Source: a virus. Taken from it: a stretch of 64,000 nt of DNA. Within the stretch, counting starts at the first letter, position 1. The number at the start of each line of letters is the position of its first letter. The notes under the pieces were generated by a model, which saw only the letters and a list, made by a program, of their open reading frames with translations, made no database searches and was not told where the DNA came from. The position numbers and the translations under genes are program-made. The DNA lies in UHGV virus genome UHGV-0293664. One strand, given 5' to 3'. Positions 12,107 through 32,150 of the stretch are shown in pieces.

Positions 12107-12111
12107 GGCTC

Positions 12112-12854: not shown

Positions 12855-12911
12855 GTCAGTCTCTCCTGTTGTATTGTTGGTAGGTGTATGAATACCTTAT
12901 AACTCACCTTT

Positions 12912-13478: not shown

Positions 13479-13480
13479 GA

Positions 13481-13726
13481 CTATAGCTCCACTAGCAAAG
13501 TGCTTTCAAAGTGCCGTTCATGCAGACCGTTGTAAGGGACCACCTCCACAACGCCATCACGAACATATGGGGTCATCATAGTGGTATAATCTCCAAACGG
13601 GTTGGTATTGTCACTAACCACAACCACCTTCTGCCCTTCCTTGGCAGAGTGCCAAATAGATCTGCACTTCATCAGGTGTTCGAGAGCTCCAGGTAAAATT
13701 TTGTTACGTTCTTTACGGGTCTTCAT
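13481..13726 (-). CDS. hypothetical protein
   Basis: 81 aa; tightly packed. Confidence 0.6.
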   Translation of the reverse strand: MKTRKERNKILPGALEHLMKCRSIWHSAKEGQKVVVVSDNTNPFGDYTTMMTPYVRDGVVEVVPYNGLHERHFESTLLVEL

Positions 13727-14172: not shown

Positions 14173-14188
14173 GGCTCTCTCCTTTTTG

Positions 14189-14422
14189 TTAATCTTCGTA
14201 AATCAGGATTTCTGCTTTAGGTTTTCGTGCTTTCAGATCCAGCTCTATCCAATGCACCATGGCTGTTTCAAGAAAAACAGCCTGGATGCATCCGTCCTCA
14301 GCGTGCCCTACCAACATAACAAGATCTTCACCTTCGTCATCTGCATCACGAACATACAGAATCTCTCCAGATTCAAAGTCTTTCACAACCTGATTGCTGG
14401 ATAATTTACGAATTTTTGCCAT
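14189..14422 (-). CDS. hypothetical protein (distant member of the 87-aa paralog family)
   Basis: 77 aa; adjacent to three tandem paralogs. Confidence 0.65.
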   Translation of the reverse strand: MAKIRKLSSNQVVKDFESGEILYVRDADDEGEDLVMLVGHAEDGCIQAVFLETAMVHWIELDLKARKPKAEILIYED

Positions 14423-14423
14423 A

Positions 14424-14687
14424 TCAGAAACCCTCTAAAAAGCTCTTGTAGAAAACAATCTCAGTGTCCACACCAGTCACAATCTTGTCGTTCCTGATTT
14501 CATCGGTAAGATAGGTGTCAAAACGCAGAACCTGTGTGGTGTTGTCACACATCCACTCAGCTGTGACCATTGCGAAAATCTTAGCATCTTCATTATCCGG
14601 TGTAAATGTTACCACCTCACCGCATTTAAACTTTTCGATAGGTTGAGTGTTAGCTTTCGGCTCTGCGATAGTGATTTTTGTGGTCAT
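14424..14687 (-). CDS. small paralog family protein, copy 3
   Basis: 87 aa, 264 nt; shares CGxVV / FD...L pattern with copies 1 and 2. Confidence 0.7.
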   Translation of the reverse strand: MTTKITIAEPKANTQPIEKFKCGEVVTFTPDNEDAKIFAMVTAEWMCDNTTQVLRFDTYLTDEIRNDKIVTGVDTEIVFYKSFLEGF

Positions 14688-14950
14688 TATTCTCCTCCTT
14701 GTTTTGAATAGCTTGTCTCTCCAAGGATGGTAATTTTGGTATCAAGCTCTGTAACTTTCATGTTTGGTGGCAGATCGTACAACTCCTTATTTTCTAAATC
14801 GAACCCCCACACACAATGTTCTCCTGTTTTGACAATCATAACTATGTTTTGAATGCCGTCTCCGTCGCAACTTACCACGGTCCCACACGGAAAACTATCT
14901 GCACGCTTTTTGTTCTTCACCTTAGAATTGAATACAATGCTAGTAGCCAT
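14687..14950 (-). CDS. small paralog family protein, copy 2
   Basis: 87 aa, 264 nt; MAT...KKR...PGTVV...FDL...ILGE shared with copy 1. Confidence 0.7.
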   Translation of the reverse strand: MATSIVFNSKVKNKKRADSFPCGTVVSCDGDGIQNIVMIVKTGEHCVWGFDLENKELYDLPPNMKVTELDTKITILGETSYSKQGGE

Positions 14951-15213
14951 TATTGTTCCTCCACCATAACTTCGCCAAGAATTTCTATGCAGGCATCCAT
15001 TTCTGTAACAACCAAGGTGTGAGGTAGTTCTGCAAACACCTTTCTGAACAGGTCAAATACCCCAACATATATGTTTGCAGGATGTGATTTTACAACAAGT
15101 GCTGTATTCACATCCCCAAGTTCATCAACAAACATCACCACAGTGCCTGGAGCTACTGAAGACAGATACTTCTTAGTTTTACGGTTTGATGCAAATTTTA
15201 ACTCTGTTGCCAT
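14950..15213 (-). CDS. small paralog family protein, copy 1
   Basis: 87 aa, 264 nt; start/stop abut the next copy. Confidence 0.7.
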   Translation of the reverse strand: MATELKFASNRKTKKYLSSVAPGTVVMFVDELGDVNTALVVKSHPANIYVGVFDLFRKVFAELPHTLVVTEMDACIEILGEVMVEEQ

Positions 15214-15228
15214 AAATAATCTCCTCCT

Positions 15229-16710
15229 TTATTTAGCGTACTCGATTAATTCCACAGTTTTCCCAAAGCTCGGGATATAATTTTTATTATACCCCTCGGT
15301 GAGAACCCATAAAGTATCGTACTTTTTCCACTTGTTGTCAACAGCCTTTTGTTCAAAGTTATGCTCAAAGTATAGGTCGGTCAGGACGATGACATCTTTT
15401 GCATTCGGTATATTGGCATCCAGATACTCGAACACGCAAGCAGCTGTTGTGCCCCATGTTGAGTGGACCTCATAGTTGATCATCTCATCTATGTTACCGC
15501 GAGTGTATACTTTAACCTCTCCAACCTCAGTTGACCAACAGAACATTGTAACCTTAAACTCTTTATACAGATTGCACAATCCGGTGATTTCATTGAACAT
15601 TTTCTTTAAAGTTCTTTGAGAGATCGAGCCAGAAACGTCTAAAGCCACCACAATATCTATGGTGTTTTCCGGATTACGACCAGGAACAATAACGTGCTGG
15701 TTCTTGTTTATAGCCCCAACTTTTCGCATTGTGCTGGTCAAAGACCCAGATCGGCGACCAGGTTTTCTGTAGGTCAGTTCAGCCTTTCGTTTAGACAACA
15801 TGCGTTGCTTAATGATATCTATATAGTTGATTACAGGCTTGCCTCTGTTCTTGACAAACTCACGCACCGCCTCAGGGCAACGACCTCCGGAAGCTTGCAT
15901 TGCTGCCTCCAGCATGTCACCAGAATCCTGCATGGCCTGATCTTTATCAGATTGGCTGATTACAGGTTGTGGCCGATCATACCCCATAGCCTTCCCAAGA
16001 TCATCGCTGGTGCCACCGTTCCCGCTCATGTGATCATCGGTTTGTCGCTTATCTCCTTGGGAGTTATCACCTTTACCGCTCTTACTTTTACCGTTATTTT
16101 GATCTCTTTGCCTATCAAGAACTGCATAGACGTTCTCAGCAATCCATCCATGAAACTTCATGTCGCAGTAGCAGCTGGCTAAGAAACCAAAAGGCTTACC
16201 TTTTACGAACGTAGTGCTTTTCCCCTTCGGGAAGAAAACACAAGGGGGCTTGCTAAAGTCAACCACAAGACCTGTGTTGATAACGTGATCACAAGCAATA
16301 TTGAACAGTTCCGGCTCAAAGCTTTTGCCACGGACCAGGTGATCACAGATAATATGCCCCACCTCATGTGACAGAAGGAAAGCCACCTCTTTCACAGATT
16401 TGGGGGAATAGAAAACTTCAGCCATCTCAAACTGCTCTCCAGTTAGAGAGGCCTTGAGAATAGCCTTGCGTTCATCAGCCAACCCCATAATGAACTCAGG
16501 ACTGTAATAGATGCGTTTATGGTCGGTTGCCATGGTGGAGCACCATGTGTGGTTTTCTACGAACTGTAACCCTGACAGCAGTGTGCCATAAAACGGCAGC
16601 TTTTCAAGGAGATACATACGTGCAGCCTGTAACATTCTCAGGGCATCATCTTTCTGTGAGGCAATGATTTCTGAACTTCTGCTATCCATTAAAACTCCAG
16701 AAGGGGCCAT
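15229..16710 (-). CDS. vWA domain protein with N-terminal putative metallopeptidase-like domain (partner type of MoxR ATPases)
   Basis: 493 aa; HExxH-like HEVGHIICDH; MIDAS motif VVALDVSGSIS. Confidence 0.85.
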   Translation of the reverse strand: MAPSGVLMDSRSSEIIASQKDDALRMLQAARMYLLEKLPFYGTLLSGLQFVENHTWCSTMATDHKRIYYSPEFIMGLADERKAILKASLTGEQFEMAEVFYSPKSVKEVAFLLSHEVGHIICDHLVRGKSFEPELFNIACDHVINTGLVVDFSKPPCVFFPKGKSTTFVKGKPFGFLASCYCDMKFHGWIAENVYAVLDRQRDQNNGKSKSGKGDNSQGDKRQTDDHMSGNGGTSDDLGKAMGYDRPQPVISQSDKDQAMQDSGDMLEAAMQASGGRCPEAVREFVKNRGKPVINYIDIIKQRMLSKRKAELTYRKPGRRSGSLTSTMRKVGAINKNQHVIVPGRNPENTIDIVVALDVSGSISQRTLKKMFNEITGLCNLYKEFKVTMFCWSTEVGEVKVYTRGNIDEMINYEVHSTWGTTAACVFEYLDANIPNAKDVIVLTDLYFEHNFEQKAVDNKWKKYDTLWVLTEGYNKNYIPSFGKTVELIEYAK

Positions 16711-16722
16711 TGGCCCCTGTTA

Positions 16723-17712
16723 TTATTTAACGTGTTTGAAAATACCTGCCAACTCGGTCATTGTCATGCGGGTGGTCTTCATAAGATCTGTCATAGCTTT
16801 CTCCATAATTGGGGATACTACCATAAAGTTTCCTTTAGTGAAACCTTTATTCCAGTCGGTCACCAACAGTGGTTTAAGTCCAGCTCCGAGACGTTCACCA
16901 GTTAAAGCACAACATTTTCGAATGTATGTGCTCTTAAACTGGCTGAATGACAGATCCACTTTCATACCTGCATCGTAGAACGTCTGGCAATAGAAAGTGT
17001 AAGCTTTGGCAATCTCAACATCGTCAGGCAGTGCAGGAACCTCTTCTGTAAGCTCTTCTTCGACCCCTTGAGGCTCTTTTTCCTCTTCGTAAGCCTGTTG
17101 CGTCATCTCTTCAATCTCCTCTACTACAGGCTCGTTTACAATGTCAGAAATGTGCTTGTTGGCTCCACGATTAGCCATGAAGTTTTTAAAATCCTGCATT
17201 GGTGACATATCTTCCTCCCATTCTTCGTCAAAGAGTGCCAGTTTATCCTCTTCCGTTCCATATTGCAAGATGAAATCTTCAAAAGTGTAATCACCTTTCA
17301 ATTTCTCCATACGCTCTTCGCTCAGGTGGAGCATCATCTGCTGGACAATTTTTCGATCAGTTTTGTCTTTAATCAAGACTGCGGTCTTTTTATCTACCAG
17401 ACAGTCCTTTAGAGAGTTGCATCTCAACCCTACCACACAACAGTTATCAACCGCATAAGGGCCTTCATCATCTATCCGCTCTAGAGATGGGTAGAAAGGA
17501 TTTCCCAGTCCGTTTTCATCCGTGTGCATGTCGAAAGGTATAAGGGTATAGTCGCATACTCCATCTCCTAAAAGTTTTTTACCAAATAGGAGATATTCTT
17601 CCCATGACAGGTTGAACTCTATATCTCGTTTCCGTGCATTATTCTGTTTGCGTCTGTATTTTTTGAGCAAGCGCTCTAACTCTTCTGGTGTATAATATTT
17701 TTCAAGATTCAT
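16723..17712 (-). CDS. hypothetical acidic protein
   Basis: ORF track start at 17778 is TTG and overlaps a minus-strand promoter; ATG at 17712 (MNLEKYY...) lies downstream of that promoter. Confidence 0.7.
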   Translation of the reverse strand: MNLEKYYTPEELERLLKKYRRKQNNARKRDIEFNLSWEEYLLFGKKLLGDGVCDYTLIPFDMHTDENGLGNPFYPSLERIDDEGPYAVDNCCVVGLRCNSLKDCLVDKKTAVLIKDKTDRKIVQQMMLHLSEERMEKLKGDYTFEDFILQYGTEEDKLALFDEEWEEDMSPMQDFKNFMANRGANKHISDIVNEPVVEEIEEMTQQAYEEEKEPQGVEEELTEEVPALPDDVEIAKAYTFYCQTFYDAGMKVDLSFSQFKSTYIRKCCALTGERLGAGLKPLLVTDWNKGFTKGNFMVVSPIMEKAMTDLMKTTRMTMTELAGIFKHVK

Positions 17713-17743
17713 GAGTTGTCTCTTGTGCTCTGTGGGTGGAGAA

Positions 17744-17772
17744 ATCTTACCAAGGGCCTGGGAAGATGTCAA
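17744..17772 (-). promoter_or_regulatory. sigma70-like promoter for minus-strand operon
   Basis: TTGACA-17 nt-TAAGAT on minus strand. Confidence 0.6.
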
Positions 17773-17785
17773 CCTCAAAAACGTG

Positions 17786-17814
17786 TTGACTTTACTCTAA
17801 ATCCTCGATATAGT
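17786..17814 (+). promoter_or_regulatory. sigma70-like promoter for plus-strand replication module
   Basis: TTGACT-17 nt-TATAGT, 40 nt upstream of ATG 17855. Confidence 0.65.
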
Positions 17815-17854
17815 GCACCCATTCGAAAGAAAACTAGCATAGGAGTACTTATTC

Positions 17855-18754
17855 ATGGCAAATCTTAACAGTTTTAGCACCAGGTGGCAACAGGATATAA
17901 CAACCAATCTTTCAGCTGGAGATATCCTTTCTGCAATTTACGAGGCTTTGGATGATAAAGCTACTTCAAGATCGGTTTGTACTAATCCGCTAATTCCTAT
18001 AGTGATGAAGGTAATTGAGCGGAGGTTGGTATCCGGGTCTGATAAGTGGACATACCTTGATAATGGAGGGCATACTTACTCCAACGGATATGTTGATATA
18101 AAAGTGGAATACGCAGTATCATACCGCCGGAGCGGTTCTGTAACTTTCAACTTCTCTGGAGGTTTTCGATCTCTGGCTACTTCACCTTTTGTTTCCTCAG
18201 AGGAGAAGTATGAGCTGCCATTTCTTTGGATGATGGCTAACGCGACAGGAAAAACCCCCGTTAGCATCCGAGTAAAATACAACTACAACGGATCTAGTAA
18301 GATCTATGCCGAAAGTGCCTCAGCAAGTTTTTATTTTGTGATGGGGGATGGAATCCTCAAACATATAAAGATGTGCGATATGCATGATGTTATAAATGAA
18401 GTGACTGATAAGAATGTTCTAGTGAAAGACCTCAATAATTTTTATACACCTGGAGACTATTACGTCAACCGCCCACTGTGCATCTTTAATGCCGCACACC
18501 CTTTAGGTGAGTATTTGATCGCCAATAGCGATATTGCCAATAACCGCTTCGAGGTAGCAAGAGTACAGAATGAGGTATTGACATCTTGCAAGAGCGGTGA
18601 TAAGTTTACCGAAGAAGAGATGGGTGTTTTAGAAATGATGGGATATAAGTGTAGCCTTTGGGTAGATGAGGTGTTTAATGACTGCATCTATGGACAGGAT
18701 ATTTACCCGTTAAAGAAGTATACTGATTCCAGTTTAATTTACGCGGAGATTTGA
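17855..18754 (+). CDS. hypothetical protein
   Basis: 299 aa; AGGAG SD 9 nt upstream. Confidence 0.8.
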   Translation: MANLNSFSTRWQQDITTNLSAGDILSAIYEALDDKATSRSVCTNPLIPIVMKVIERRLVSGSDKWTYLDNGGHTYSNGYVDIKVEYAVSYRRSGSVTFNFSGGFRSLATSPFVSSEEKYELPFLWMMANATGKTPVSIRVKYNYNGSSKIYAESASASFYFVMGDGILKHIKMCDMHDVINEVTDKNVLVKDLNNFYTPGDYYVNRPLCIFNAAHPLGEYLIANSDIANNRFEVARVQNEVLTSCKSGDKFTEEEMGVLEMMGYKCSLWVDEVFNDCIYGQDIYPLKKYTDSSLIYAEI

Positions 18755-21933: not shown

Positions 21934-21960
21934 CCCCGCTTCGGCGGGGATTTTCTATTT
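21934..21960 (+). terminator. intrinsic terminator
   Basis: CCCCGC-TTCG-GCGGGG hairpin then ATTTTCTATTT. Confidence 0.7.
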
Positions 21961-21969: not shown

Positions 21970-22470
21970 GTGAAAATTAAGATCTTTGCTATTATTTTGA
22001 GCGCATTTTTATCGCTGCCTGTTGTTGCAGCACCAAAACAAAAAGTATATCATACTTGCAAGCCCTCAGATACTAAGGAAAACATTCTGGCATGCAATAT
22101 CTACAGGGAAGCTAGAGGGGATGGCACGATGGGTATGCTGGCATCTGGGTTTGCCACACTAAACAGGAAATCTCACCCCAAATACCCAGACACTATAAGA
22201 AAGATCGTCTACCAACCTAACCAGTTTTCGTGGACAAACCACGGCAAAACTTTTAAGGTGACAGAAAAAGATTCATGGGATCACGCTAAAAGTCTTGCAA
22301 AGATGCTTCTAAAGGTCTATAATAACAACCATGTTGCATACATGGCTATGGATATAACAGGTGGAGCAACACACTACCATACAACCAAAGTACGACCGAA
22401 ATGGGCAAAAAAGATGCAGAGGACAGCTCAATTCGGGAACCATATCTACTACAAGGAGCGCAATAAATGA
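21970..22470 (+). CDS. SleB-like cell wall hydrolase with N-terminal signal peptide
   Basis: GTG 21970 after GGAG; MKIKIFAIILSAFLSLPVVAAPK signal-like N-terminus; YREARGDG...LNR...YQPNQFSW matches Hydrolase_2/SleB pattern. Confidence 0.7.
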   Translation: MKIKIFAIILSAFLSLPVVAAPKQKVYHTCKPSDTKENILACNIYREARGDGTMGMLASGFATLNRKSHPKYPDTIRKIVYQPNQFSWTNHGKTFKVTEKDSWDHAKSLAKMLLKVYNNNHVAYMAMDITGGATHYHTTKVRPKWAKKMQRTAQFGNHIYYKERNK

Positions 22471-24449
22471 TCGTAAACAGTAATGAAACTAAAGCGGTAC
22501 TGACCGGGAATATGGAGGTCACCAGGGGCTCAATTTCTCTGAACAAAGAGACTTTTGGGCTAATCATTAAAGGGATTTACGAAGATAAGGTGCTGGCAAG
22601 CTGCCGTGAACCAATCTTCAATGCTGTGGACTCCCATGTTGAGTCTGGACGGGGTGATGTACCGATCATCATTCACTCTCCTACAGACCTTGAACCATAC
22701 TTCTTTGTGCAGGACGTTGGATTGGGCATGTCAGAAGAGATGGTCCGTAACACTTTCATGAACCTCGGGGAGTCAACCAAGCGCAACAGCAACGCCCTGG
22801 TTGGCAATAAAGGTGTTGGTTCAAAGGCCCCGTTCAGCATGGTGGACACTTTCGATGTGATCAGTGTGCACAATGGGGTTGAAAGCACATATCTATTGTT
22901 CTTGGATCAGGGTATCCCAAACGTTACCAAGATCCGCGAGCGGAAGACCGAAGAGCACAATGGGGTAAAAGTTCAGTTCCATGTTAAGAAAGAGCATGTT
23001 CTGAAATATCGCACTGCTATTGCGTCATGCCTACGCTATGCAAAGTTTCCGTTTACCGTTACCGACCCTATGACCAGTAAGATGCTGGAAGGTGACAAGG
23101 TTGAGGCGCAGTATCACTACGAGAAGGATGGTTGGAAAATGACCATCCTGAAAGGTTATACCAGCTCTGATGAGAGCCGTGTGGTGATGGGACACCAACC
23201 TTACCGCTCTAAGTTCCTGGAAACATTGACAGACTACCCTGCAATCTGTGTGGAGATCCCTATCGGGGATTGCAATATTAACCCTGGGCGCGAATGGACC
23301 ATAGAGGGTCACGACGATGGTGGATTCCAAGAGCGTCTGGAGGCTTTTGTCAAAGAGGGTATCCGTCTTCGTGGGGCAGAAGTTGTTGCGGAATTGGAAA
23401 CAGCAAAAACATCCTCAGAAGCACGCGAAATGATGAAGAACAGCGGAGTGTTCGGGCACATCTTCGGTAAGAATTTTATGTGGGAACGATGGGAAGAGAC
23501 AGGCCTAGGAAATTTGGGGGACTGTGAGATCTTCGCTGGCGGCTTAAATAAAGGCCGCATAGGTTACGCTTGTTACGGAAAGGTAGAATTCTTACGGGGA
23601 GTCTATTTAGTATTTAACGACGGAGACGGCAAATATAACCGAAATAAGTGTAACTACTTAAGCGAGATCACCGGACGCAACGTTTTCTATTGCCGGAACA
23701 CGGATCTGGTGAAAGAGTTTAAAGAGGCGGCACACCATCCGTTCTTTGCAGATACGATCAAATTGTTATCAGAGCTCCCTCGCCGACCTGCGAAGAAAGG
23801 TGAAACAAAAACTCATTATGAGCCAGGCTATTGGGTTAAAAAACTTGAGGATGATGGTTACTTCCGTCGTGAGCGTATTACTAAGGCAGAGTTCAAGAAG
23901 ATTAAGCACTGCATTCCTTATGAGGGCGATATCCAACGTGGAAGTTGTTGGCTGGGACAGCTGAGTAACATCTACCAGCAAAATTATGACCGTGTGCGTG
24001 CGGCACTCCAAATTCCTGAAGGTGAAGATCTGTACTTGGTATCAGAATCTCGTCTGCTTTGGACTGATCCTGATTGCCAGTATGTTACAGAGAAGAGTGT
24101 GGAACATTTGTTGAAAGAGGATGCTTGGAAATTCTTACTGACTCGCGCAGCAAATGAAACCTCATATGACAGCCTGTATAGACAATTAGGGAAAATTATC
24201 CCCATGCAAGATTTTGGAAATTATCGGCCACATTTCCACAAGTGGGAAGGTAACACCGCGTGGAAGCACAGTGAGCTAAATCATCGTGCCAAAATCTTAA
24301 TCGCCAACCGAGTTAAGTGCGGGAAGGCCTATATTGCAAGATTGGAAAAGAAATATCCACTTTTGAAGCATGTGGGCTTGAAATATTGGGACACTCCTGC
24401 TATGATTGAATACCGTGAACTGATTGATACAAAGAATAACACCAACTAA
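22467..24449 (+). CDS. GHKL-type ATPase domain protein
   Basis: 660 aa; Bergerat-fold motifs: N box E..FNAVDS, G1 VQDVGLGMS, G2 GNKGVGSKAPFS. Confidence 0.8.
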   Translation: MIVNSNETKAVLTGNMEVTRGSISLNKETFGLIIKGIYEDKVLASCREPIFNAVDSHVESGRGDVPIIIHSPTDLEPYFFVQDVGLGMSEEMVRNTFMNLGESTKRNSNALVGNKGVGSKAPFSMVDTFDVISVHNGVESTYLLFLDQGIPNVTKIRERKTEEHNGVKVQFHVKKEHVLKYRTAIASCLRYAKFPFTVTDPMTSKMLEGDKVEAQYHYEKDGWKMTILKGYTSSDESRVVMGHQPYRSKFLETLTDYPAICVEIPIGDCNINPGREWTIEGHDDGGFQERLEAFVKEGIRLRGAEVVAELETAKTSSEAREMMKNSGVFGHIFGKNFMWERWEETGLGNLGDCEIFAGGLNKGRIGYACYGKVEFLRGVYLVFNDGDGKYNRNKCNYLSEITGRNVFYCRNTDLVKEFKEAAHHPFFADTIKLLSELPRRPAKKGETKTHYEPGYWVKKLEDDGYFRRERITKAEFKKIKHCIPYEGDIQRGSCWLGQLSNIYQQNYDRVRAALQIPEGEDLYLVSESRLLWTDPDCQYVTEKSVEHLLKEDAWKFLLTRAANETSYDSLYRQLGKIIPMQDFGNYRPHFHKWEGNTAWKHSELNHRAKILIANRVKCGKAYIARLEKKYPLLKHVGLKYWDTPAMIEYRELIDTKNNTN

Positions 24450-24459: not shown

Positions 24460-25665
24460 ATGATTTTCATCTACGAACATTTCAAAACTCGTAAAGAAGC
24501 ACGTGACCGCCGTGCAGAACTTGAGAAGAAGGGTTTCACATGTGCCATTGAGAAAGGTGATACAACCTGGACACTAGCAGTTGGTGCCCCAGAGCTGTTC
24601 GATCCTGACCGTGACAGCGTCTGCTACACCCGTGAGGATTTTGAAACCCGTGAAGAGGCCCGTTTATTTCGATATGGGCTGGAAGATAACGGTAAGTACG
24701 CCATGATCTTAGACTTAGGCGAAGGTTCCGTTAAACGTTGGGGCGTGGTATACCCACTGTGTGTTGTTCACGGTGTGGGGTTCACTGGTGTAGCAATCAA
24801 GTCAGAAGAACCTTTAGTAGAAGTCAAAGATCCGGTGCTGGAGGTGGTGAGCAGTGTGTCTCAGCAACAGACTCGAAGCATCGAGCCTTTGGTAGTTATT
24901 TGCGGAGAACTCCTCCAGATCACCTGCAACGAAGGCATTTTTGAAATTCGCCGCAGTGAAAGTGAGGAAGTTTACCAGAAAGTCTTTGACCATATCTCTG
25001 TTCAGGAATATGACGAGGCAATTGGTGAAATCCTTGTCTGGCTGGAACGCAAGAATGAGTTCACCACACTTGCAGACAACTTGATCATGAAAGATGGCAA
25101 GCTCTACTACTACGGCGTAGAGATGCGATCCACTATTGCAAAGAAAATTGAGAAAGACTATGCAGACGGAACATTGGATGACCGCTATGTGAAATTCCTC
25201 GTTCGACTGCTACGCAATCCATCTGCAAAATCTGTAAACATGCTCTACGATTTTATGCAGGCCAATGATATTCAGATTGCAGAAGATGGTCGAATCATTT
25301 GCTACAAAGGCGTTCAGTTTAACGGCAGCAAGTGGGTGGATTGGCACAGTGGTAAAGTCCCACAATACCAAGGTGCTTTTGTATCCATGCCTCGTAACTT
25401 TGTAGAGGATGATCCTGAAGCTGCGTGCTCCTATGGCTTACACTGCGCCAGCAAAGAGTATGCAAAGAGCTACGGCACTGTAATGACTGTTATGGTTGAC
25501 CCTGCAGATGTGGTTAGTGTGCCATACCAACACAATAGCGCTAAGTGCCGTGCATGCCGCTATGAGATTGTGGTAGCTCCGGAAGCACGCAAGGACGGCG
25601 ACCCGATTGAATACGTGGTTGACCGAGACGGTAACACTATCGACATTCTTTACGAGGAGGCGTAA
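24460..25665 (+). CDS. hypothetical protein
   Basis: ATG 24460 preceded by AAGGAG (track start 24424 is TTG inside upstream gene); 401 aa. Confidence 0.8.
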   Translation: MIFIYEHFKTRKEARDRRAELEKKGFTCAIEKGDTTWTLAVGAPELFDPDRDSVCYTREDFETREEARLFRYGLEDNGKYAMILDLGEGSVKRWGVVYPLCVVHGVGFTGVAIKSEEPLVEVKDPVLEVVSSVSQQQTRSIEPLVVICGELLQITCNEGIFEIRRSESEEVYQKVFDHISVQEYDEAIGEILVWLERKNEFTTLADNLIMKDGKLYYYGVEMRSTIAKKIEKDYADGTLDDRYVKFLVRLLRNPSAKSVNMLYDFMQANDIQIAEDGRIICYKGVQFNGSKWVDWHSGKVPQYQGAFVSMPRNFVEDDPEAACSYGLHCASKEYAKSYGTVMTVMVDPADVVSVPYQHNSAKCRACRYEIVVAPEARKDGDPIEYVVDRDGNTIDILYEEA

Positions 25666-27035
25666 TGGAAAAAGGGCAGTATGATGTAGGCACAGATGCT
25701 GCCCTTGTTGCAATCATGAGCGGTGAGAATGTCTTCGTTTCAGGACCCGCAGGTTGTGGGAAGACGTACCTCATCAACATGATCCAGTCAATGTATGGAG
25801 ACTCTTGCATAACGGTTGCCCCGACAGGGGTAGCCGCTTTAAACGTTAATGGAGCAACAGCACACCGAACCTTCGATCTTGCAGCAGGTGTGAGCATGGA
25901 GTCAGACTGGACCGCAATAAGGGCAAAAACAGCAAAGCCTTTGAAAAGCAAGGCATTTACCATCCTAATTATCGATGAAATCTCTATGATCCGTGCTGAT
26001 AAGTTTATAGAGATGGATAGGAAACTCCGCTTCCTTCGAAAAAATGACAAACCTTTCGGAGGCATACAGGTCATATTGTTTGGCGATTTTTACCAGGCAC
26101 CTCCTGTTGTCTCTTCTATGGAGAAGGAGGCCTACTTCAACTTCTACCACACAGACCTATGTTGCTATACCGAATCTTGGAAAGAGCTTGACCTTCACAA
26201 CATAGCCCTAATAGACCAGTTCCGACAGGAGTCTATTCGATTTGCCACAATGCTCAACTGTGTTCGTGAGGGTCGTCGCATAAAAGAGGTTGTAGCAGAA
26301 CTTAATGCTCGCTGTTACAAAGGCGGTGTACCAACAGACGCTCTCACAATTTGCGCCACCAACAAACAAGCAGAGGAAGTGAACAGAAGGTTCTATGATG
26401 CCATCAACGCCCCAGAGAAGGTATACACTGGTGAAATGAAGGGTAAGTTTCCCTCCACCCTGCCAGTGGAGCAGGAGATGAAGTTGAAAATTGGCATGAA
26501 AGTTATGATAACCGCCAACGATGTTGACCCGACGCACAAAGTACCTTATTATGTTAACGGAACACGTGCCACAATTGTTAAATTTAAGAACAAGGCGGTG
26601 GTGGTAGAGCTTGAAGATGGAACACAGGTTGACATAGAGCAGAGGTTGTGGGAGAATAACGAGTATAAGCCATCTCAGAGATACAACATTGCAGAAAGGA
26701 AGATGGAGAAGTTTATAGAGAGGGTAGTGATTGGGTCATACAAGCAACTTCCTCTGAAATCTGGGTACGCCGTAACATCTCATAAAAGTCAAGGACTTAC
26801 GTTAGATTGTTACAACCTAGACCTTGGAAAGAACGGAGCTTTCTCTCCTGGTATGACGTATGTTGCTTTGAGTAGAGTTAAGACAATACAAGGAATAAAC
26901 TTGTTGCGTCCACTAAGAGAGGTTGACATTATTGTTGACCCGCGAGTCGTAGAGTTTTACAATACAACATTCCCTGACTTAGACAAAATTGTCAGGAAAG
27001 ATTTTGAAACCAGAGCAGAAGAGGGGGACGTATGA
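25665..27035 (+). CDS. SF1B DNA helicase (Dda/RecD/Pif1-like)
   Basis: 456 aa; Walker A GPAGCGKT; Walker B IIDEISM; TSHKSQG motif. Confidence 0.9.
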   Translation: MEKGQYDVGTDAALVAIMSGENVFVSGPAGCGKTYLINMIQSMYGDSCITVAPTGVAALNVNGATAHRTFDLAAGVSMESDWTAIRAKTAKPLKSKAFTILIIDEISMIRADKFIEMDRKLRFLRKNDKPFGGIQVILFGDFYQAPPVVSSMEKEAYFNFYHTDLCCYTESWKELDLHNIALIDQFRQESIRFATMLNCVREGRRIKEVVAELNARCYKGGVPTDALTICATNKQAEEVNRRFYDAINAPEKVYTGEMKGKFPSTLPVEQEMKLKIGMKVMITANDVDPTHKVPYYVNGTRATIVKFKNKAVVVELEDGTQVDIEQRLWENNEYKPSQRYNIAERKMEKFIERVVIGSYKQLPLKSGYAVTSHKSQGLTLDCYNLDLGKNGAFSPGMTYVALSRVKTIQGINLLRPLREVDIIVDPRVVEFYNTTFPDLDKIVRKDFETRAEEGDV

Positions 27036-27373
27036 GTTTGTGGAGAAATATCGTTAACTACGTGTGTGGCAATCCAACCCCTGAAGAGAAGGATGTTGTG
27101 ATTCACGATTTTACTAAAAGATCTCGTGAAAAAGATCTACTGCTAACAAAGGTGACTGATAAAGATCCCGCAGTAGGGGACTGGGCAGGTTTTGCATTTA
27201 CATCGGACAAATACACCTTTAACAAAGGTGACTACCTTGTTGTGGATTTTAACGAAGACATTGAGGGTGCTGAACCTTACTATCAGACCCTTATTGTTGC
27301 AGGGTGTGTTGATCTCTCTGCAGGTATGCACAGTTTGATTCTTTTTGAGCTTGACTCTGAAGACCTTGAGTAG
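27032..27373 (+). CDS. hypothetical protein
   Basis: 113 aa; start overlaps helicase stop. Confidence 0.7.
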   Translation: MSLWRNIVNYVCGNPTPEEKDVVIHDFTKRSREKDLLLTKVTDKDPAVGDWAGFAFTSDKYTFNKGDYLVVDFNEDIEGAEPYYQTLIVAGCVDLSAGMHSLILFELDSEDLE

Positions 27374-27433
27374 TAAGATGTGAGTCTAAAGGGGAGGCAC
27401 TCCTCCCCACAAAAACTAAGGAAGCACTAAACG

Positions 27434-27736
27434 ATGAAACGTTATAAACCATACACTTTTGAAATCGATTTCGAACTTGACGATATGTTTACTGTGGAGG
27501 CTCAGGCAGTTGTCCAGTTGCCAGACCCGGAGTGCCGTGATTCTGATGTTGACTATTACGGATTTAGACAAATTACCGATGTGCATGTTTACCACAACGG
27601 TGAAGAGGTGGACTTCTACAAATTGCCAAACGATATGCGCCACTCAATTTACAAACGTGCAGCCCGTGAACTAGATTCCTATCTGGATGCAGCGACGACA
27701 GCAGCTGCATTTGCCGAAGAAGTGGGAGGTTTCTGA
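27434..27736 (+). CDS. hypothetical protein
   Basis: 100 aa; SD AAGGAAG. Confidence 0.7.
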   Translation: MKRYKPYTFEIDFELDDMFTVEAQAVVQLPDPECRDSDVDYYGFRQITDVHVYHNGEEVDFYKLPNDMRHSIYKRAARELDSYLDAATTAAAFAEEVGGF

Positions 27737-28633: not shown

Positions 28634-28659
28634 CCCTGCCCGAAAGGGTGGGGCTTTTT
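28634..28659 (+). terminator. intrinsic terminator with GAAA tetraloop (copy 1 of 2)
   Basis: CCCTGCCC-GAAA-GGGTGGGG then CTTTTT; same hairpin at 39347. Confidence 0.75.
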
Positions 28660-28677
28660 GCATTAGGAGACAGCAAA

Positions 28678-29289
28678 TTGAAATTTATATACAAAGAACA
28701 CTACCACAAAGGTGTTGTGTGGAGTCTATTTGACGGGTCTGGTGGTGCAGTCATTGACTGGGCAAAAGCTGGGTACCTGTGCCTGTGCTTTAATGCAGAA
28801 GGTGCTGATCACGGCAGTTATGCAGAGGTGATCACCGATCATCCCAACATTCACTATGTTGATTATTGGATTGACCCATGGTTCCCTCAGGAAACTTTTT
28901 GCATGTACCCAGCTCCAGACTTTATTCTTGCATTTCCTCCGTGCACGCATTTAGCGGTGTCAGGTGCTGCACATTTTAAGAAAAAGCTGGCTAAGGACCC
29001 CCTGATCCAAATTAATGCTGTAAAGGATGCTCGGGTTGCGGAAGAGCTGGGAGAGATTTACGATTGCCCGTGGCATGTAGAGAATCCTGTGGGTGTTATG
29101 TCCACACTGTGGCGCAAACCTGTCCCGCAAATAGTTGACGTGGTTAGCGGGTATTCCATGCAACACGCCAAGCTGGGTGGAAAGAGTGCAAGAACGAAGA
29201 TGATTCGAAGCCTCACACCACGTGGCTGGGCAAAAGCCGTATTCTTAGCAAACGAGCCTGTAGTAAGGAGCAGAATTAATGGGAAGTAA
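28678..29289 (+). CDS. DNA cytosine-5 methyltransferase-like protein (catalytic core only)
   Basis: Motif I LFDGSGG...AG; motif IV FPPCTHLAVSG (PC dipeptide); motif VI HVENPVG; start uncertain (TTG 28678 after AGGAG; track start 28648 lies inside terminator). Confidence 0.7.
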   Translation: MKFIYKEHYHKGVVWSLFDGSGGAVIDWAKAGYLCLCFNAEGADHGSYAEVITDHPNIHYVDYWIDPWFPQETFCMYPAPDFILAFPPCTHLAVSGAAHFKKKLAKDPLIQINAVKDARVAEELGEIYDCPWHVENPVGVMSTLWRKPVPQIVDVVSGYSMQHAKLGGKSARTKMIRSLTPRGWAKAVFLANEPVVRSRINGK

Positions 29290-31357
29290 ATTTATGGCAT
29301 CTGCATACAACCGTTTCGGCGAGCCAAACCCGAAAGCAACTAAGTATAAAAGTGGGGGAAGTGTGAAACGAGACTATCGTGATGAAAAAGAAGTTGAAAC
29401 TGTAGAGACTGTTTTAGAAAATACTAAAATTGTCCCTGTCCCACAACAGAATATCGGTCTGATGGCTGCACAATATTTTGGTGTGCGATCAGCATTGTCC
29501 CAAGAAGACGGTGTGACAGTCACTGCAACATATTTCCCATATTACGACCGCTACGGAAATCTGTCCGGTTTCAAAAAGCGTGACTGGACTATTCCTAAAG
29601 AGCAAAGGGGCCATTTCTCCGTTGTTGGCATCGTAAAGGCCAACTCCCAGATGTTTGGTCAAAAGCTGTGTGCATCTTCCAACAACCGTAAGCAGATCAA
29701 CGTTTGTGAGGGAGAAGGTGATGTTATTGCAGCATGGCAGGCTGCATATCAGATACAAGTAAAAGGGATTCTCACCAATGCTAAAGCCCCGGCAAAGGTG
29801 AAGCAGTGGGCTAAAGAGGTCCAGGACGGGATCGATGCAGTTATCAACGGCGGTGATCTGGCAGGAAAACCCTGCCTGCCTTTTGTTGGAATTAACTGTG
29901 GATGTGCAAACGCAGTAGATACTTTTGCAAACAATGAGAAGTTTATCCGTAGCTATGGAACAGTTGTGCTGGCAATGGATAACGATGCAGCTAACGAGGT
30001 AGAGAAGCAAAAACACGTCATTAAAGGTGTTGAGGCCACGCACAATATCGCAGCATTTTTAATGGCTGATAACGTTTACCACGTAGAATACCCTGGTGAA
30101 GTAAACGACCCTGACGGTGTAAAAGATATCCGAGACATGCTGAAGGCTAAAAAGCTGGAAGATATTGTCAACATGTTCCGGCATCCTGTTAAATATGTGC
30201 CTGATGCTGTGTCGGATTTAGAAGACTTCTCTATCGAGTCTTTGCGGAAAAAGACTTCCAACGGGGTAGATATCAGTGCAGAGTTCCCAAAACTGCAAAA
30301 AATGCTAAAAGGCTTGCACAAAGGGACACTTGTAATGCTTACAGGTCCATCAGGCGGCGGTAAAACAACCGTGGCTAAAAAACTGGAACACTGTATTGCA
30401 AGATACCTAATGGACCCGACATGCCAGAAGGCTGATGACTATGAAGAGGATGATCGTCTATGTATGATCCATCTTGAGGAGGACCCAGAGGAAGCAATTA
30501 ACTCCTTGTATGCAAACCAGTTAGGGTTTGATGTTAAAGAGTTTGTTGAAGATCCTAGCCAGTTTTTAACTGATCAAGAACACGCAGAGATTCACCAATC
30601 ATGGGCAAAAGCTGGAAAAATCAAAGTGTTCAAACATTTCGGATCTATTCCGGTGGACGAGTTGATTACCAAGCTTAAGCAAATGGTTTGCCTGTACCAT
30701 TGCCGTTATATTGTGCTGGATCACCTGTCCATGGTAATTTCAGGGCTTAATGTTAAGGATGAGCGAAAAGAACTGGACATGGCTATGACTCAGCTGGCTG
30801 CGTTTTGTAAGCAGTTTAACGTGTTTATCTTGGTGATCGCTCACCTCAAACGTACAGAGATTGTGCCTCCTAAGGACAAGGATGGTAACCCGTTACCTTT
30901 CTGGTATCCTGTGCGAAAAGAGAATTTGCGAGGATCGGCGGGGCTTGAACAGTTGAGTTGGGTAGTCATAGGTGTCGAGGCCGAAGAAATGGTGGATCGT
31001 TCTCGTGGACGTGTCCGTCTGGTAGGTCTTAAAAACCGTCCAGCAAAAACTCTAGGTATTGCTGACACTTTGGTTATGGACCCGCACACAGGTAAGTTCC
31101 ATGATGCCAGTAATTGGTACTGGGACAAAGAAATGCAAATGTTTACAGACGGAGAAGGTGGGGAGGTTGTTTGGAGACCTCAGGCTATGTTTGAGGATCA
31201 GGAGCATGCAGTTGTAGAAACACCTATGGGCAAGGTTGTGGCTGATAAGGTTGTAACTCCTACTGTTAAGTCTGTTGACACGCAGGAAGACCTCCAGTAC
31301 GATGATCCATCCTCTGACCCGGTCCCCGGTTTTGAGGATGATGAAACGCCTTTTTAA
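29279..31357 (+). CDS. bifunctional DNA primase-helicase (TOPRIM primase + DnaB-like helicase)
   Basis: 692 aa; TOPRIM-like CEGEGD and MDNDAANE; Walker A TGPSGGGKTT. Confidence 0.9.
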   Translation: MGSKFMASAYNRFGEPNPKATKYKSGGSVKRDYRDEKEVETVETVLENTKIVPVPQQNIGLMAAQYFGVRSALSQEDGVTVTATYFPYYDRYGNLSGFKKRDWTIPKEQRGHFSVVGIVKANSQMFGQKLCASSNNRKQINVCEGEGDVIAAWQAAYQIQVKGILTNAKAPAKVKQWAKEVQDGIDAVINGGDLAGKPCLPFVGINCGCANAVDTFANNEKFIRSYGTVVLAMDNDAANEVEKQKHVIKGVEATHNIAAFLMADNVYHVEYPGEVNDPDGVKDIRDMLKAKKLEDIVNMFRHPVKYVPDAVSDLEDFSIESLRKKTSNGVDISAEFPKLQKMLKGLHKGTLVMLTGPSGGGKTTVAKKLEHCIARYLMDPTCQKADDYEEDDRLCMIHLEEDPEEAINSLYANQLGFDVKEFVEDPSQFLTDQEHAEIHQSWAKAGKIKVFKHFGSIPVDELITKLKQMVCLYHCRYIVLDHLSMVISGLNVKDERKELDMAMTQLAAFCKQFNVFILVIAHLKRTEIVPPKDKDGNPLPFWYPVRKENLRGSAGLEQLSWVVIGVEAEEMVDRSRGRVRLVGLKNRPAKTLGIADTLVMDPHTGKFHDASNWYWDKEMQMFTDGEGGEVVWRPQAMFEDQEHAVVETPMGKVVADKVVTPTVKSVDTQEDLQYDDPSSDPVPGFEDDETPF

Positions 31358-31415: not shown

Positions 31416-32150
31416 ATGAACGAGTTCAGAGATCACTGTGTAGCCAATCACTTGTGGTCAGAGATATTGGAGTATGACGGTCAAAATCTTTTTTGGAAGA
31501 TAGACATTCTGGCAGGTAGCGGTGTAGGATATGTTAAAACTTCAGCAGGCTCTAGAGCTGACAAGGGGCAAGATGCTGATGGCAGGCCTGTGGTCAGTCT
31601 AGGAAAGCATTGCACTAAAGGTGCCCACGTCATAATTTGGGAAATGTTTAACGGTCCTGTACCGGAAGGGTATGAGGTTGACCACATCAAGGAGATAAGA
31701 GAAACAGGTGGTGTGGCTGATAACAGTATTCAAAATTTGCAACTGCTCGAGCCTACAGATAACAAAAAGAAAAGTTGCAAGATACCTCGTAGTAACAACA
31801 AGTCTGGTAGGGTCGGGGTGCACTATTCTGAAGAAAGAGAGGCATGGATAGCTCAAGGCACAGATTCTGCAGGTGAAAGAGTCTGGCTAGGCCAGTACAG
31901 AACTTTTGAAGAGGCAGAGTGGGCAAGAAAGTTCTTCGAAGATAATGGTTTTTCGCACAAGAGTGGAAGAGCCGTGCAGTATAATAACACCAGCGGTTGC
32001 TCAGGGGTGAATTGGGATAAAACCCATGAAAGATGGGTAGCCAGAATTTATGTAGATGGTAAAAGGAAATGCCTTGGGTATTTCAAGAACAGAGAAGATG
32101 CAATAGCTGCAAGAAAGAGTGCTGAGAAGAAACAGGAGGAGACAGTATGA
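31416..32150 (+). CDS. HNH homing endonuclease with AP2-like DNA-binding domains
   Basis: 244 aa; HNH core EVDHIKE...N..NLQLL; two AP2-like repeats (GVHYSEEREAWIAQ..., GVNWDKTHERWVARIYVDGKRKCLGYF). Confidence 0.85.
   Translation: MNEFRDHCVANHLWSEILEYDGQNLFWKIDILAGSGVGYVKTSAGSRADKGQDADGRPVVSLGKHCTKGAHVIIWEMFNGPVPEGYEVDHIKEIRETGGVADNSIQNLQLLEPTDNKKKSCKIPRSNNKSGRVGVHYSEEREAWIAQGTDSAGERVWLGQYRTFEEAEWARKFFEDNGFSHKSGRAVQYNNTSGCSGVNWDKTHERWVARIYVDGKRKCLGYFKNREDAIAARKSAEKKQEETV

What the first reader, a model, noticed from the sequence alone, without database searches (positions are those of the whole stretch)
22467..24449. Large GHKL-type ATPase inside the replication module
The N-terminal ~130 aa carry Bergerat-fold motifs (N box E..FNAVDS, G1 DVGLGMS, G2 GNKGVGSKAPF) in the correct order, followed by ~500 aa without features I recognise. 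It is flanked by the SleB-like hydrolase and the Dda-like helicase. It does not look like a type II topoisomerase subunit, as I find no TOPRIM or gyrase-A-like partner nearby. GHKL ATPases of the MORC/Hsp90 type are unusual in phage replication modules.
Basis: partly seen in the sequence, partly recalled or inferred. Interest (0 to 1): 0.5.

Follow-up and report, generated by a model that had tools for sequence, protein, structure and literature searches.

The report
Phage rIIA gene, an Hsp90-like ATPase
The "large GHKL ATPase" is the well-known phage gene rIIA of an rV5-like coliphage; with the overlooked rIIB gene next to it, it lets the phage grow on bacteria carrying the lambda RexAB suicide defence, so the finding is real but ordinary.

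Summary
The ORF at 22467-24449 (+, 660 aa) is real and its Bergerat/GHKL motifs are genuine: Pfam HATPase_c_3 scores 35 bits against a cut-off of 25. It is not an unknown enzyme. It matches the PHROG family "RIIA" end to end (E 5e-124). It is annotated rIIA in most of about 120 Vequintavirus (rV5-like) genomes at 92-98% nucleotide identity. It is 98% identical in protein to phage EdH4 gp63. Knockdown of EdH4 RIIA or RIIB was published to lower plating only on RexAB-expressing E. coli.

- Residues 1-190 form a GHKL domain.
- Residues 192-310 form an S5-fold "middle/transducer" domain.
- Among solved families the closest by sequence is Hsp90; all 60 listed PDB profile hits are Hsp90, TRAP1, GRP94 or HtpG.
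- The invariant R275-E276 aligns with the Hsp90 catalytic loop "SRE".
- Residues 311-660 have no solved relative but share their fold with T4-type RIIA models.
- All ATP-site residues are 100% conserved in 172 divergent relatives.

Verdict: already known gene. It is most likely an ATP-driven Hsp90-like clamp working with RIIB. How it blocks Rex is still unknown.

The parts
21934..21949 (+). Terminator-like GC hairpin (CCCCGCTTCGGCGGGG followed by a T-run). It probably marks the upstream edge of the transcription unit that holds the SleB-like gene, rIIA, rIIB and the helicase.
   Evidence: Found by the consensus scan. A terminator is annotated at the same place in phage EdH4. Sequence read. This is pattern evidence only.
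21970..22470 (+). SleB/CwlJ-like cell-wall hydrolase gene, upstream neighbour. It starts at a GTG behind a GGAG site, and its stop overlaps the rIIA start as ATGA.
   Evidence: Pfam Hydrolase_2 at E 9.5e-20. The start is set by the annotated 501-nt orthologues and by the sequence. The Bas54 orthologue tolerates transposon insertions.
22467..24449 (+). rIIA, 660 aa, about 75.7 kDa, with no transmembrane segment. This is the gene of the finding.
   Evidence: ORF. phrog_612 'RIIA' at E 4.9e-124 over residues 1-657. Annotated rIIA in most Vequintavirus records. 98% identical (647/658) to EdH4 gp63. Maximum 19-residue hydropathy is 0.93.
22542..23036 (+). GHKL (Bergerat-fold) ATP-binding domain, residues ~26-190. 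N box R47-E48...N52...D55 at 22605-22631. G1 box D83-G85-G87 at 22713-22727. Lid S103-T104-K105 at 22773-22781. G2 box G113-G116-G118 at 22803-22820.
23040..23396 (+). Second domain, residues ~192-310, with a ribosomal-S5-domain-2-like fold. It corresponds to the 'transducer' of GyrB/MutL/MORC or the 'middle' domain of Hsp90. It carries invariant Y246 and R275-E276 (23289-23294), the proposed gamma-phosphate sensor loop.
23397..24446 (+). C-terminal region, residues 311-660. The predicted secondary structure runs from a helical stretch through mixed helix/strand and strand-rich stretches to a helical end. It is specific to the rIIA family and its function is unknown. I propose dimerisation and/or RIIB or target binding.
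24460..25665 (+). rIIB, 401 aa, ATG start 7 nt after an AAGGAG site and 10 nt after the rIIA stop.
   Evidence: phrog_609 'RIIB' at E 1.4e-61. BLASTP to T4 RIIB gives 37% identity over residues 172-371, E 4e-39. Its cluster carries PF26926 Phage_T4_rIIB. Start site read. Annotated rIIB in relatives.
25665..27035 (+). PIF1/Dda-like SF1 helicase. Its start overlaps the rIIB stop as TAATG. It is a neighbour in the same gene string and is not claimed as part of the rII function.
   Evidence: Pfam PIF1 at E 1.1e-32 and phrog_325 'Dda-like helicase' at E 6.4e-112. Overlap read. The order hydrolase-rIIA-rIIB-helicase is kept in a 39%-identical relative.

Best explanation
The gene is rIIA of a Vequintavirus (rV5-like) coliphage. 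It works with the adjacent rIIB as an anti-defence module. The module is dispensable on ordinary hosts. It is needed to plate on cells that carry the lambda RexAB abortive-infection system, in which RexA switches on the RexB membrane channel so that the cell depolarises.

Biochemically, RIIA is a soluble two-domain ATPase built like the N and middle domains of Hsp90. It has a Bergerat-fold ATP pocket (E48 general base, N52 for Mg2+, D83 for adenine, and the glycine-rich lid G113-G118). It also has an S5-fold second domain whose invariant Arg275-Glu276 loop matches the Hsp90 catalytic 'SRE' loop.

The most likely mode of action, inferred by analogy with every characterised GHL ATPase, is this. 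ATP binding closes the lid and dimerises the N-domains. Arg275 docks on the gamma-phosphate. The ATP cycle opens and closes a dimeric clamp whose family-specific C-terminal 350 residues hold RIIB and/or the target.

The clamp, with RIIB, keeps RexAB-type sensors from firing. My preferred guess is that it sequesters or remodels the phage replication/recombination intermediate that the DNA-binding sensor RexA detects. It is not a topoisomerase, MutL or kinase.

Shown: gene identity, domain build, residue conservation, pairing with rIIB, and the published phenotype of a 98%-identical orthologue. Inferred: ATP hydrolysis, dimerisation, the role of R275, RIIA-RIIB contact, and the step at which Rex is blocked.
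For: Identity:
- phrog_612 RIIA at E 4.9e-124, full length.
- About 120 Vequintavirus records at 92-98% nucleotide identity, mostly annotated rIIA.
- T4 RIIA: BLASTP E 3e-21 and hhalign 99.95% probability over residues 1-321.
- The C-terminal fold is shared with T4-type RIIA models.

Partner:
- rIIB lies 10 nt downstream.
- The pairing is kept in relatives of 39% and about 23-30% identity.
- A natural RIIA-RIIB fusion exists in phage RB43.

Function:
- EdH4 RIIA is 98% identical to this protein.
- The Bas54 (Vequintavirinae) rIIA tolerates transposon insertions on K-12.

Enzyme:
- Pfam hit above its cut-off.
- ATP-site residues invariant in 172 divergent relatives.
- S5-fold second domain.
- All 60 listed PDB profile hits are Hsp90 family.
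- HtpG hhalign E 7e-11 with the SRE loops aligned, against a weak MutL control.
- No transmembrane segment.

RexA is a DNA-binding protein (PMC11077077).
Against: - No ATPase assay, structure or interaction data for any RIIA turned up in the library. The recent papers read here state that the mechanism of Rex inhibition is unclear.
- In this Vequintavirus clade the loop reads P-G-R-E-W-T rather than the family and Hsp90 consensus S-R-E-x-L-Q.
- I could not inspect model coordinates, so the proximity of R275 to the ATP site is untested.
- The C-terminal 350 residues do not resemble the Hsp90 C-domain.
- The EdH4 result is a knockdown, and polar effects between rIIA and rIIB were not excluded in what I read.
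- The rII family is far more widespread than lambda-like RexAB, so Rex may not be its main natural target.
Confidence: 0.85

Rival explanations
1. RIIA/RIIB inhibits the defence proteins directly. The ATP-driven clamp binds RexA or the RexB channel at the inner face of the membrane and keeps the channel shut, like a dedicated anti-defence inhibitor. It does not act on a phage-made trigger.
For: rII modules with less than 40% identity, from four phage subfamilies, all neutralise the same lambda RexAB. That fits a conserved target on the defence side. From my own knowledge of 1970s fractionation work, T4 RIIA and RIIB were found in membrane fractions. RIIB alone is sensed by a bacterial gasdermin system, the pattern seen for other anti-defence proteins.
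Against: The family has 17,360 clusters at 50% identity, far beyond hosts known to carry lambda-type Rex. RIIA has no membrane segment, and RIIB has only one borderline hydrophobic stretch. No interaction data were found. A 660-aa ATPase plus a 401-aa partner is heavy machinery for a stoichiometric inhibitor.
Confidence: 0.25
2. RIIA is a DNA-acting GHKL clamp of the MORC/MutL/topoisomerase-ATPase kind. It takes part in phage DNA replication or compaction, and Rex resistance is a side effect.
Against: There is no TOPRIM, GyrA-like, MutL C-terminal or CW/coiled-coil element in the protein or its neighbours. By sequence the family is closest to Hsp90, at E 1e-8 against no listed MutL, GyrB or MORC hit and a weak MutL hhalign. 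The gene is dispensable for growth on K-12 in T4, Bas54 and EdH4.
Confidence: 0.1
3. It is literally a 'lysis inhibitor', as many records label it. On this reading it controls the timing of lysis together with the overlapping SleB-like cell-wall hydrolase gene.
For: The database labels read 'RIIA lysis inhibitor'. The start codon overlaps the stop of a Hydrolase_2 gene. The classical r phenotype is rapid lysis.
Against: From my own knowledge (Paddison et al. 1998, Genetics 148:1539; the paper is not held in the library), T4 lysis inhibition depends on rI, rIII and the holin. The rII plaque phenotype reflects prophage-encoded exclusion. RIIA has no membrane or signal segment. Both the SleB-like gene and rIIA tolerate insertions in Bas54. 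The published phenotype is Rex-dependent plating.
Confidence: 0.03

Closest known systems
Bacteriophage T4 RIIA (NP_049616.1), the founding member of the rIIA family
   Same: The N-terminal ~320 residues are homologous: BLASTP 28% identity over residues 1-198 at E 3e-21, and hhalign 99.95% probability over 1-321. This stretch covers all the GHKL motifs and the (S/G)RE loop. In both phages an rIIB gene follows immediately downstream. The published phenotype is the same: needed only on RexAB hosts. The C-terminal fold is shared with T4-type RIIA models at the structure level.
   Different: Beyond residue ~320 there is no detectable sequence similarity to T4 RIIA itself. The protein is 65 aa shorter. 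The GHKL domain is more canonical here: Pfam 35 bits, above the cut-off, against 22.1 bits, below it, for T4. The loop reads PGREW here and PSREA in T4. The genomic setting differs: between a SleB-like hydrolase gene and a PIF1 helicase gene here, and next to topoisomerase genes in T4.
Hsp90 family (HtpG, TRAP1, GRP94, Hsp82)
   Different: There is no match to the Hsp90 C-terminal dimerisation domain or to the later part of the middle domain. There is no charged linker. Identity is only ~17-23%. Matches to NCBIfam HSP90 and sacsin models lie far below their cut-offs. No chaperone activity is known. The protein has a dedicated partner, RIIB, that Hsp90 lacks.
Other two-domain GHL ATPases: MutL N-terminal domain, GyrB/ParE 43-kDa fragment, MORC2/3, Topo VI-B, SMCHD1
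   Different: None of their effector parts is present: no TOPRIM, no GyrA/ParC or Topo VI-A partner, no MutL endonuclease domain, no CW zinc finger or coiled coil. Sequence similarity is much weaker than to Hsp90. The sensor residue is an Arg in an 'RE' loop, as in Hsp90. From my own knowledge, GyrB and MutL use a Lys at that position.

Membership tests
Phage rIIA family (PHROG 612; T4 RIIA orthologues) | Full-length match to the family profile | tested here: met
   phrog_612 at E 4.9e-124, residues 1-657 on profile positions 1-723 of 725. A profile built from this protein's relatives finds 13,422 representatives at E<=1e-30, and the best 150 nearly all span the whole profile.
Phage rIIA family (PHROG 612; T4 RIIA orthologues) | Significant similarity to T4 RIIA itself | tested here: met
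   BLASTP E 3e-21 over residues 1-198. hhalign 99.95% probability, E 1.8e-37, over residues 1-321. The C-terminal half is related only at fold level, through other T4-type RIIA models.
Phage rIIA family (PHROG 612; T4 RIIA orthologues) | Adjacent, co-oriented rIIB gene | tested here: met
   rIIB lies at 24460-25665: phrog_609 at E 1.4e-61, T4 RIIB at E 4e-39, and PF26926 Phage_T4_rIIB. The pairing is kept in distant relatives.
Phage rIIA family (PHROG 612; T4 RIIA orthologues) | Conditional requirement for growth on RexAB (lambda lysogen) hosts | not testable with these tools
   Published for the 98%-identical EdH4 orthologue by CRISPRi-ART knockdown (PMC11879866). The Bas54 orthologue is non-essential on K-12. 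Not tested for this phage.
GHKL (Bergerat-fold) ATPase superfamily | Motif I (E-x3-N-x2-D), motif II (D-x-G-x-G) and motif III (G-x2-G-x-G), in that order, on a Bergerat fold | tested here: met
GHKL (Bergerat-fold) ATPase superfamily | ATP binding and hydrolysis | not testable with these tools
   Only inferred, from complete conservation of the catalytic residues across 172 representatives. No biochemical report was found.
Hsp90 family | Hsp90-type N-domain, closest to Hsp90 among GHKL families | tested here: met
   All 60 listed PDB profile hits are Hsp90, TRAP1, GRP94 or HtpG. hhalign to HtpG gives 96.8-97.1% probability, against 21-57% for MutL.
Hsp90 family | Middle domain with the catalytic Arg loop (consensus N-x-S-R-E-x-L-Q) | tested here: inconclusive
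Hsp90 family | Hsp90 C-terminal dimerisation domain, and whole-protein match to curated Hsp90 models | tested here: not met
Type II topoisomerase ATPase subunit (GyrB/ParE/T4 gp39) | TOPRIM domain and a GyrA/ParC-type (or gp52-type) partner | tested here: not met
   No TOPRIM or topoisomerase family hit in the protein. No such hit in the 20 neighbouring or large ORFs scanned. The similarity is confined to the ATPase plus transducer module.
MutL / MORC | MutL C-terminal dimerisation/endonuclease domain, or the MORC CW zinc finger and coiled-coil insert | tested here: not met
Known anti-phage defence proteins (PADLOC) | Match to a defence-system model | tested here: not met
   Only two hits, at E ~0.005-0.008 and 12.6-12.7 bits.

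The most novel reading that the evidence does not exclude
RIIA may be a phage-encoded Hsp90-type molecular clamp. Its N-domain and middle domain would share the Hsp90 catalytic arginine loop, with R275 here equivalent to HtpG R336. They would be joined to a family-specific C-terminal module that engages RIIB. If so, the 70-year-old question of how rII defeats Rex becomes a question about an ATP-driven remodelling machine. It could then be attacked with standard Hsp90 tools: E48A 'trap' and R275A 'dead' alleles, AMPPNP-induced dimerisation, and Bergerat-fold inhibitors such as radicicol. I found no paper in the searchable library that links rIIA to Hsp90. The only statement I found is 'GHKL superfamily ATPase domain'.
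Probability: 0.4. Interest if true: 0.5.

Novelty: already known. Interest (0 to 1): 0.2.

Why it matters
As a scan finding it matters little. The gene is rIIA, it is annotated in over a hundred near-identical phage genomes, and its conditional anti-RexAB role was published for a 98%-identical orthologue.

The useful residue is mechanistic. rII is one of the most famous genes in genetics, yet its biochemistry is still unknown. The analysis here gives three points:
- The ATP site is perfectly conserved across thousands of divergent relatives.
- A second, S5-fold domain carries an invariant Arg-Glu loop.
- The nearest solved relatives by sequence are Hsp90 chaperones rather than topoisomerases or MutL.

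These points yield concrete, cheap point-mutant tests. The work also corrects the local gene map by placing rIIB between rIIA and the helicase. It also flags that the common database label 'lysis inhibitor' is misleading.

Tried and rejected
- Topoisomerase, MutL or MORC identity: rejected. No effector domains or partners are present and the profile similarity is weak.
- Defence-system protein: rejected. PADLOC gave nothing meaningful.
- Integral membrane protein: rejected for RIIA, with maximum hydropathy 0.93. RIIB has one borderline stretch at residues 95-113, with a value of 1.69.
- Pfam DUF7003 (E 0.017) and SACS (E 0.0085) hits: below their cut-offs and not used as evidence. SACS is only consistent with Hsp90-likeness.
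- RIIA-RIIB fusions among the closest rIIB relatives: none in the 120 listed. A fusion does exist in RB43.
- Fold search of the C-terminal region against AFDB: the library was not available. PDB gave no hit for residues 311-660.
- tRNA scan of the window: no tRNA genes.
- Promoter and terminator scan: counts were no higher than in shuffled sequence. Only the hairpin at 21934-21949, which matches an annotated terminator in EdH4, was kept.
- Literature search for an RIIA ATPase assay, structure or Hsp90 link: nothing found. Paddison et al. 1998 is not held.
- Two literature searches failed on a term-length rule.
Full report
**1. What is in the sequence**

The ORF exists exactly as stated: 22467-24449 on the + strand, ATG start, 660 codons. 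An AAGGAG site lies 8 nt upstream. The ATG overlaps the stop of the upstream gene as ATGA.

The three quoted motifs are present in the correct order:
- REPIFNAVDS at residues 47-56
- DVGLGMS at residues 83-89
- GNKGVGSKAPF at residues 113-123

They are not chance matches. Pfam HATPase_c_3 matches residues 50-147 with E 1.8e-8 and 35 bits, above the curated cut-off of 25.

**2. What the gene is**

Against PHROGs the protein matches phrog_612, "RIIA lysis inhibitor". The match runs from residue 1 to 657 on profile positions 1-723 of 725, at E 4.9e-124.

Megablast finds the gene in 120 phage records at 90-98% nucleotide identity. Apart from sixteen records named "Campylobacter phage" and a few generically named ones, these are Escherichia phages; those whose taxonomy I checked are Vequintavirus (rV5-like), and most annotated records label the gene rIIA. 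The window therefore comes from an rV5-like coliphage; the best match is phage V18 at 98.1%.

Similarity to T4 RIIA itself is significant:
- BLASTP gives 28% identity over residues 1-198, E 3e-21.
- Profile-profile comparison gives 99.95% probability and E 1.8e-37 over residues 1-321, matched to T4 1-316.

**3.

The next gene is not the helicase. It is rIIB. It starts at the ATG at 24460, 7 nt after an AAGGAG site and 10 nt after the rIIA stop, and ends at 25665, giving 401 aa.

Evidence that it is rIIB:
- phrog_609 "RIIB" at E 1.4e-61.
- T4 RIIB at 37% identity over residues 172-371, E 4e-39.
- Its protein cluster carries Pfam PF26926, Phage_T4_rIIB.

The PIF1/Dda-like helicase follows at 25665-27035, with a TAATG overlap. 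Upstream lies a SleB/CwlJ-like hydrolase gene, 21970-22470, GTG start. It is preceded by a terminator-like hairpin at 21934-21949, which is annotated as a terminator in EdH4.

The order hydrolase, rIIA, rIIB, helicase is kept in a relative whose RIIA is only 39% identical. A relative of about 23-30% identity still has rIIB one small ORF downstream of rIIA.

No TOPRIM, GyrA-like or MutL-type gene is present among the 20 surrounding or large ORFs I scanned. These ORFs encode:
- tail fibres
- HNH endonucleases
- a MoxR-like ATPase
- a methyltransferase
- a primase-helicase
- a DNA polymerase

.

**4. Anatomy of the protein**

I collected 31 homologue clusters and aligned 24 sequences as A1. An AlphaFold2 model from A1 has mean pLDDT 83.5.

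(a) Residues ~26-190 are the Bergerat fold.

(b) Residues ~192-310 are a second domain.
- RIIA is therefore a GHL-type two-domain ATPase module, not a bare GHKL domain.

(d) Neither protein has a clear membrane segment. Maximum 19-residue hydropathy is 0.93 for RIIA and a borderline 1.69 for RIIB.

**5. Conservation**

A profile of A1, searched against 1.84 billion representatives, finds 17,360 proteins at E<=1e-3 and 13,422 at E<=1e-30. Nearly all of the best 150 span the whole profile, and most are 640-800 aa long.

In a MAFFT alignment of 172 of these with the window protein, median identity to the window protein is 22%. These residues are conserved in 100% of sequences:
- Y38, R47, E48, N52, D55, P72
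- D83, G85, S103
- G113, G116, G118
- Y246, R275, E276

This set includes the general-base glutamate, the Mg-binding asparagine and the adenine-binding aspartate, three glycines of the G1 and G2 boxes and the glycine-rich lid. The fourth box glycine, G87, is conserved in 92%. Such conservation is hard to explain unless the family binds and hydrolyses ATP.

**6. Which GHKL family it resembles**

By sequence it is closest to Hsp90.
- A PDB search with the A1 profile returns 138 matches. All 60 best are Hsp90, TRAP1, GRP94 or HtpG, with E from 8e-9 to 4e-5. For full-length HtpG the match runs into the middle domain: profile 81-321 on HtpG 78-376.
- hhalign of A1 against E. coli HtpG gives 96.8% probability and E 2.7e-10 over the N-domain. 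Against E. coli MutL it gives 21%.
- With the 173-sequence family profile, the HtpG alignment extends to 366 columns at 97.1% probability and E 7e-11. The family consensus "IGdLdIaaSRExLqY..T..I" aligns on HtpG "[22 protein letters not shown]" with posterior confidence 7-8 of 9. This pairs R275 with HtpG R336. The MutL control is weak (57%) and has no confident alignment in the second domain.

From established knowledge of Hsp90, which I did not test here, that arginine (R380 in yeast Hsp82) reaches from the middle domain to the ATP gamma-phosphate in the closed, N-terminally dimerised state.

Caveats:
- In the Vequintavirus clade the loop reads PGREWT, not SRExLQ.
- There is no Hsp90-like C-terminal domain.
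- Curated Hsp90 and sacsin models score far below their cut-offs.
- I could not read model coordinates to check the geometry.

My conclusion is that RIIA works like Hsp90 in its ATPase half but is not a member of the Hsp90 family.

**7. Function**

The literature in the library is consistent.
- rIIA and rIIB allow T4 to grow on hosts with lambda RexAB, an abortive-infection system that depolarises the membrane. The mechanism is described as unclear.
- Iyer et al. [quoted passage not shown] They call the system a poorly understood counter-defence (PMC7824862).
- EdH4 is a Vequintavirus. Its rIIA-rIIB region matches the window at 93.7% nucleotide identity (H55). Its RIIA is 647/658 identical to the window protein.
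- In the Vequintavirinae phage Bas54, rIIA (100 TA sites, mean ~416 reads) and rIIB tolerate transposon insertions on K-12.
- RIIB alone triggers a bacterial gasdermin/CARD defence.
- RexA is a DNA-binding protein.
- A natural RIIA-RIIB fusion of 1049 aa exists in phage RB43. This explains why the 'RIIB' profile phrog_609 also matches the GHKL domain of RIIA. It supports physical cooperation between the two proteins.

**8. Most likely mechanism**

Shown:
- The gene is rIIA.
- It has a two-domain ATPase build.
- Its ATP site and its R-E loop are invariant across the family.
- It is paired with rIIB.
- A near-identical orthologue has a Rex-dependent phenotype.

Inferred by analogy with all characterised GHL ATPases:
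- ATP binding closes the lid and dimerises the N-domains.
- R275 senses the gamma-phosphate.
- The cycle moves the C-terminal module, which I propose binds RIIB and/or the target.

Speculative: the point at which Rex is blocked. I favour masking or remodelling of the phage DNA-protein intermediate that RexA senses, for three reasons:
- The family is vastly wider than lambda-type Rex.
- The module sits among replication genes.
- RexA binds DNA.

Direct inhibition of RexA or RexB is a serious rival.

**9. Verdict**

The structural reading (GHKL, not a topoisomerase, Hsp90/MORC-like) is right. The claim of an unusual, unassigned enzyme is wrong: this is the already known rIIA gene with its partner rIIB.

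The Hsp90-type N plus middle-domain reading, with a conserved catalytic Arg loop, is a modest refinement. I did not find it in the searchable literature, and that library is incomplete. Interest as a scan finding is low. The refinement offers cheap, decisive mutant tests for an old open question.

Noticed in passing
window 24460-24760 (RIIB residues 1-100): The N-terminal part of this RIIB consists of two similar ~45-aa repeats (IYEHFKTRKEARDRRAELEKKGF... and CYTREDFETREEARLFRYGLEDNGK...). It has a sub-threshold Pfam SPOR match of 19.3 bits against a cut-off of 21. T4 RIIB instead has sub-threshold helix-turn-helix matches at its N-terminus. Only the C-terminal ~200 aa are shared between the two. 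The RIIB N-terminal module is therefore swapped between phage groups.
   Followed up: partly
BFVD entry Q56C47 (Escherichia phage RB43); PHROG phrog_609: Phage RB43 encodes a natural RIIA-RIIB fusion of 1049 aa, labelled 'RIIA-RIIB membrane-associated'. This probably explains why the 'RIIB' profile phrog_609 (1055 positions) matches the GHKL domain of RIIA at its N-terminus and RIIB at its C-terminus. It is a Rosetta-stone hint that the two proteins form one machine.
   Followed up: partly
GenBank MG065635-MG065690 ('Campylobacter phage' C2, A141, A13b, C15, A135, C5, C9, D1, C12 and others): Sixteen records named Campylobacter phage, with host given as C. jejuni for fifteen of them, carry this E. 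coli Vequintavirus rIIA-rIIB locus at 94-95% identity over its full length. They have no annotation. This looks like host mis-assignment or contamination in those submissions.
   Followed up: no
Vequintavirus GenBank records (V5 DQ832317, FV3, Murica, FFH2, JES2013 and others): Many records are linearised so that rIIA occupies bases 1-1983 on the minus strand, following the T4 map convention. rIIB then falls at the other end of the record, so the rIIA-rIIB pair appears as two separate 'places' in searches.
   Followed up: no
window 27373-27434, compared with L001 (phage isim) 12969-14294: Phage isim has a 1.3-kb 'putative adenine methyltransferase' gene between the small ORF after the helicase and the next small ORFs. 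In the window these ORFs are almost adjacent (27032-27373, then 27434-27736), so this phage lacks that methyltransferase. The second methylase ORF (28648-29289, 213 aa from a GTG) is also shorter than the 254-aa isim gene, and it matches its PHROG profile in two stretches.
   Followed up: no
phage BP9, PP488543.1, 122141-124994: The match to the rIIA-rIIB region covers only 89% of the query. The features under it include 'IS2 insertion element repressor InsA' (H63). This suggests an IS2 insertion at or near the 3' part of rIIB in that phage stock.
   Followed up: no
window 25665-27035 (helicase) and 21970-22470 (SleB-like); HIDEN-SEQ supplementary file 9: In the Bas54 transposon data, the helicase orthologue (bas54_0068) is strongly depleted in one comparison, at log2 fold change -6.3 with q = 0. 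The SleB-like hydrolase orthologue (bas54_0065) tolerates insertions, so it is probably not the essential endolysin. I did not work out which host comparison the table rows refer to.
   Followed up: no
L002 12-2189 (T4 rIIA): T4 RIIA, the founding member of the family, falls below Pfam's gathering score for HATPase_c_3 (22.1 bits against 25). The Vequintavirus protein passes at 35 bits. Automatic annotation can therefore miss the GHKL domain in T4-type RIIA.
   Followed up: yes
window 31416-32150 and 15229-17778: An HNH endonuclease ORF of 244 aa sits between the primase-helicase (29279-31357) and the DNA polymerase (32147-34924) and overlaps the polymerase start. It may be a homing endonuclease. 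Two minus-strand ORFs (15229-16710 and 16723-17778) are labelled 'HNH endonuclease' by PHROGs but 'metallopeptidase' and 'anti-sigma factor' in phage isim.
   Followed up: no
window 10001-18000 and 56001-64000: GC skew turns negative in these two blocks. In the first block the ORFs of 150 aa or more are all on the minus strand. The rII-replication block from 17.8 to about 56 kb is mostly on the plus strand. No tRNA genes occur anywhere in the window.
   Followed up: no
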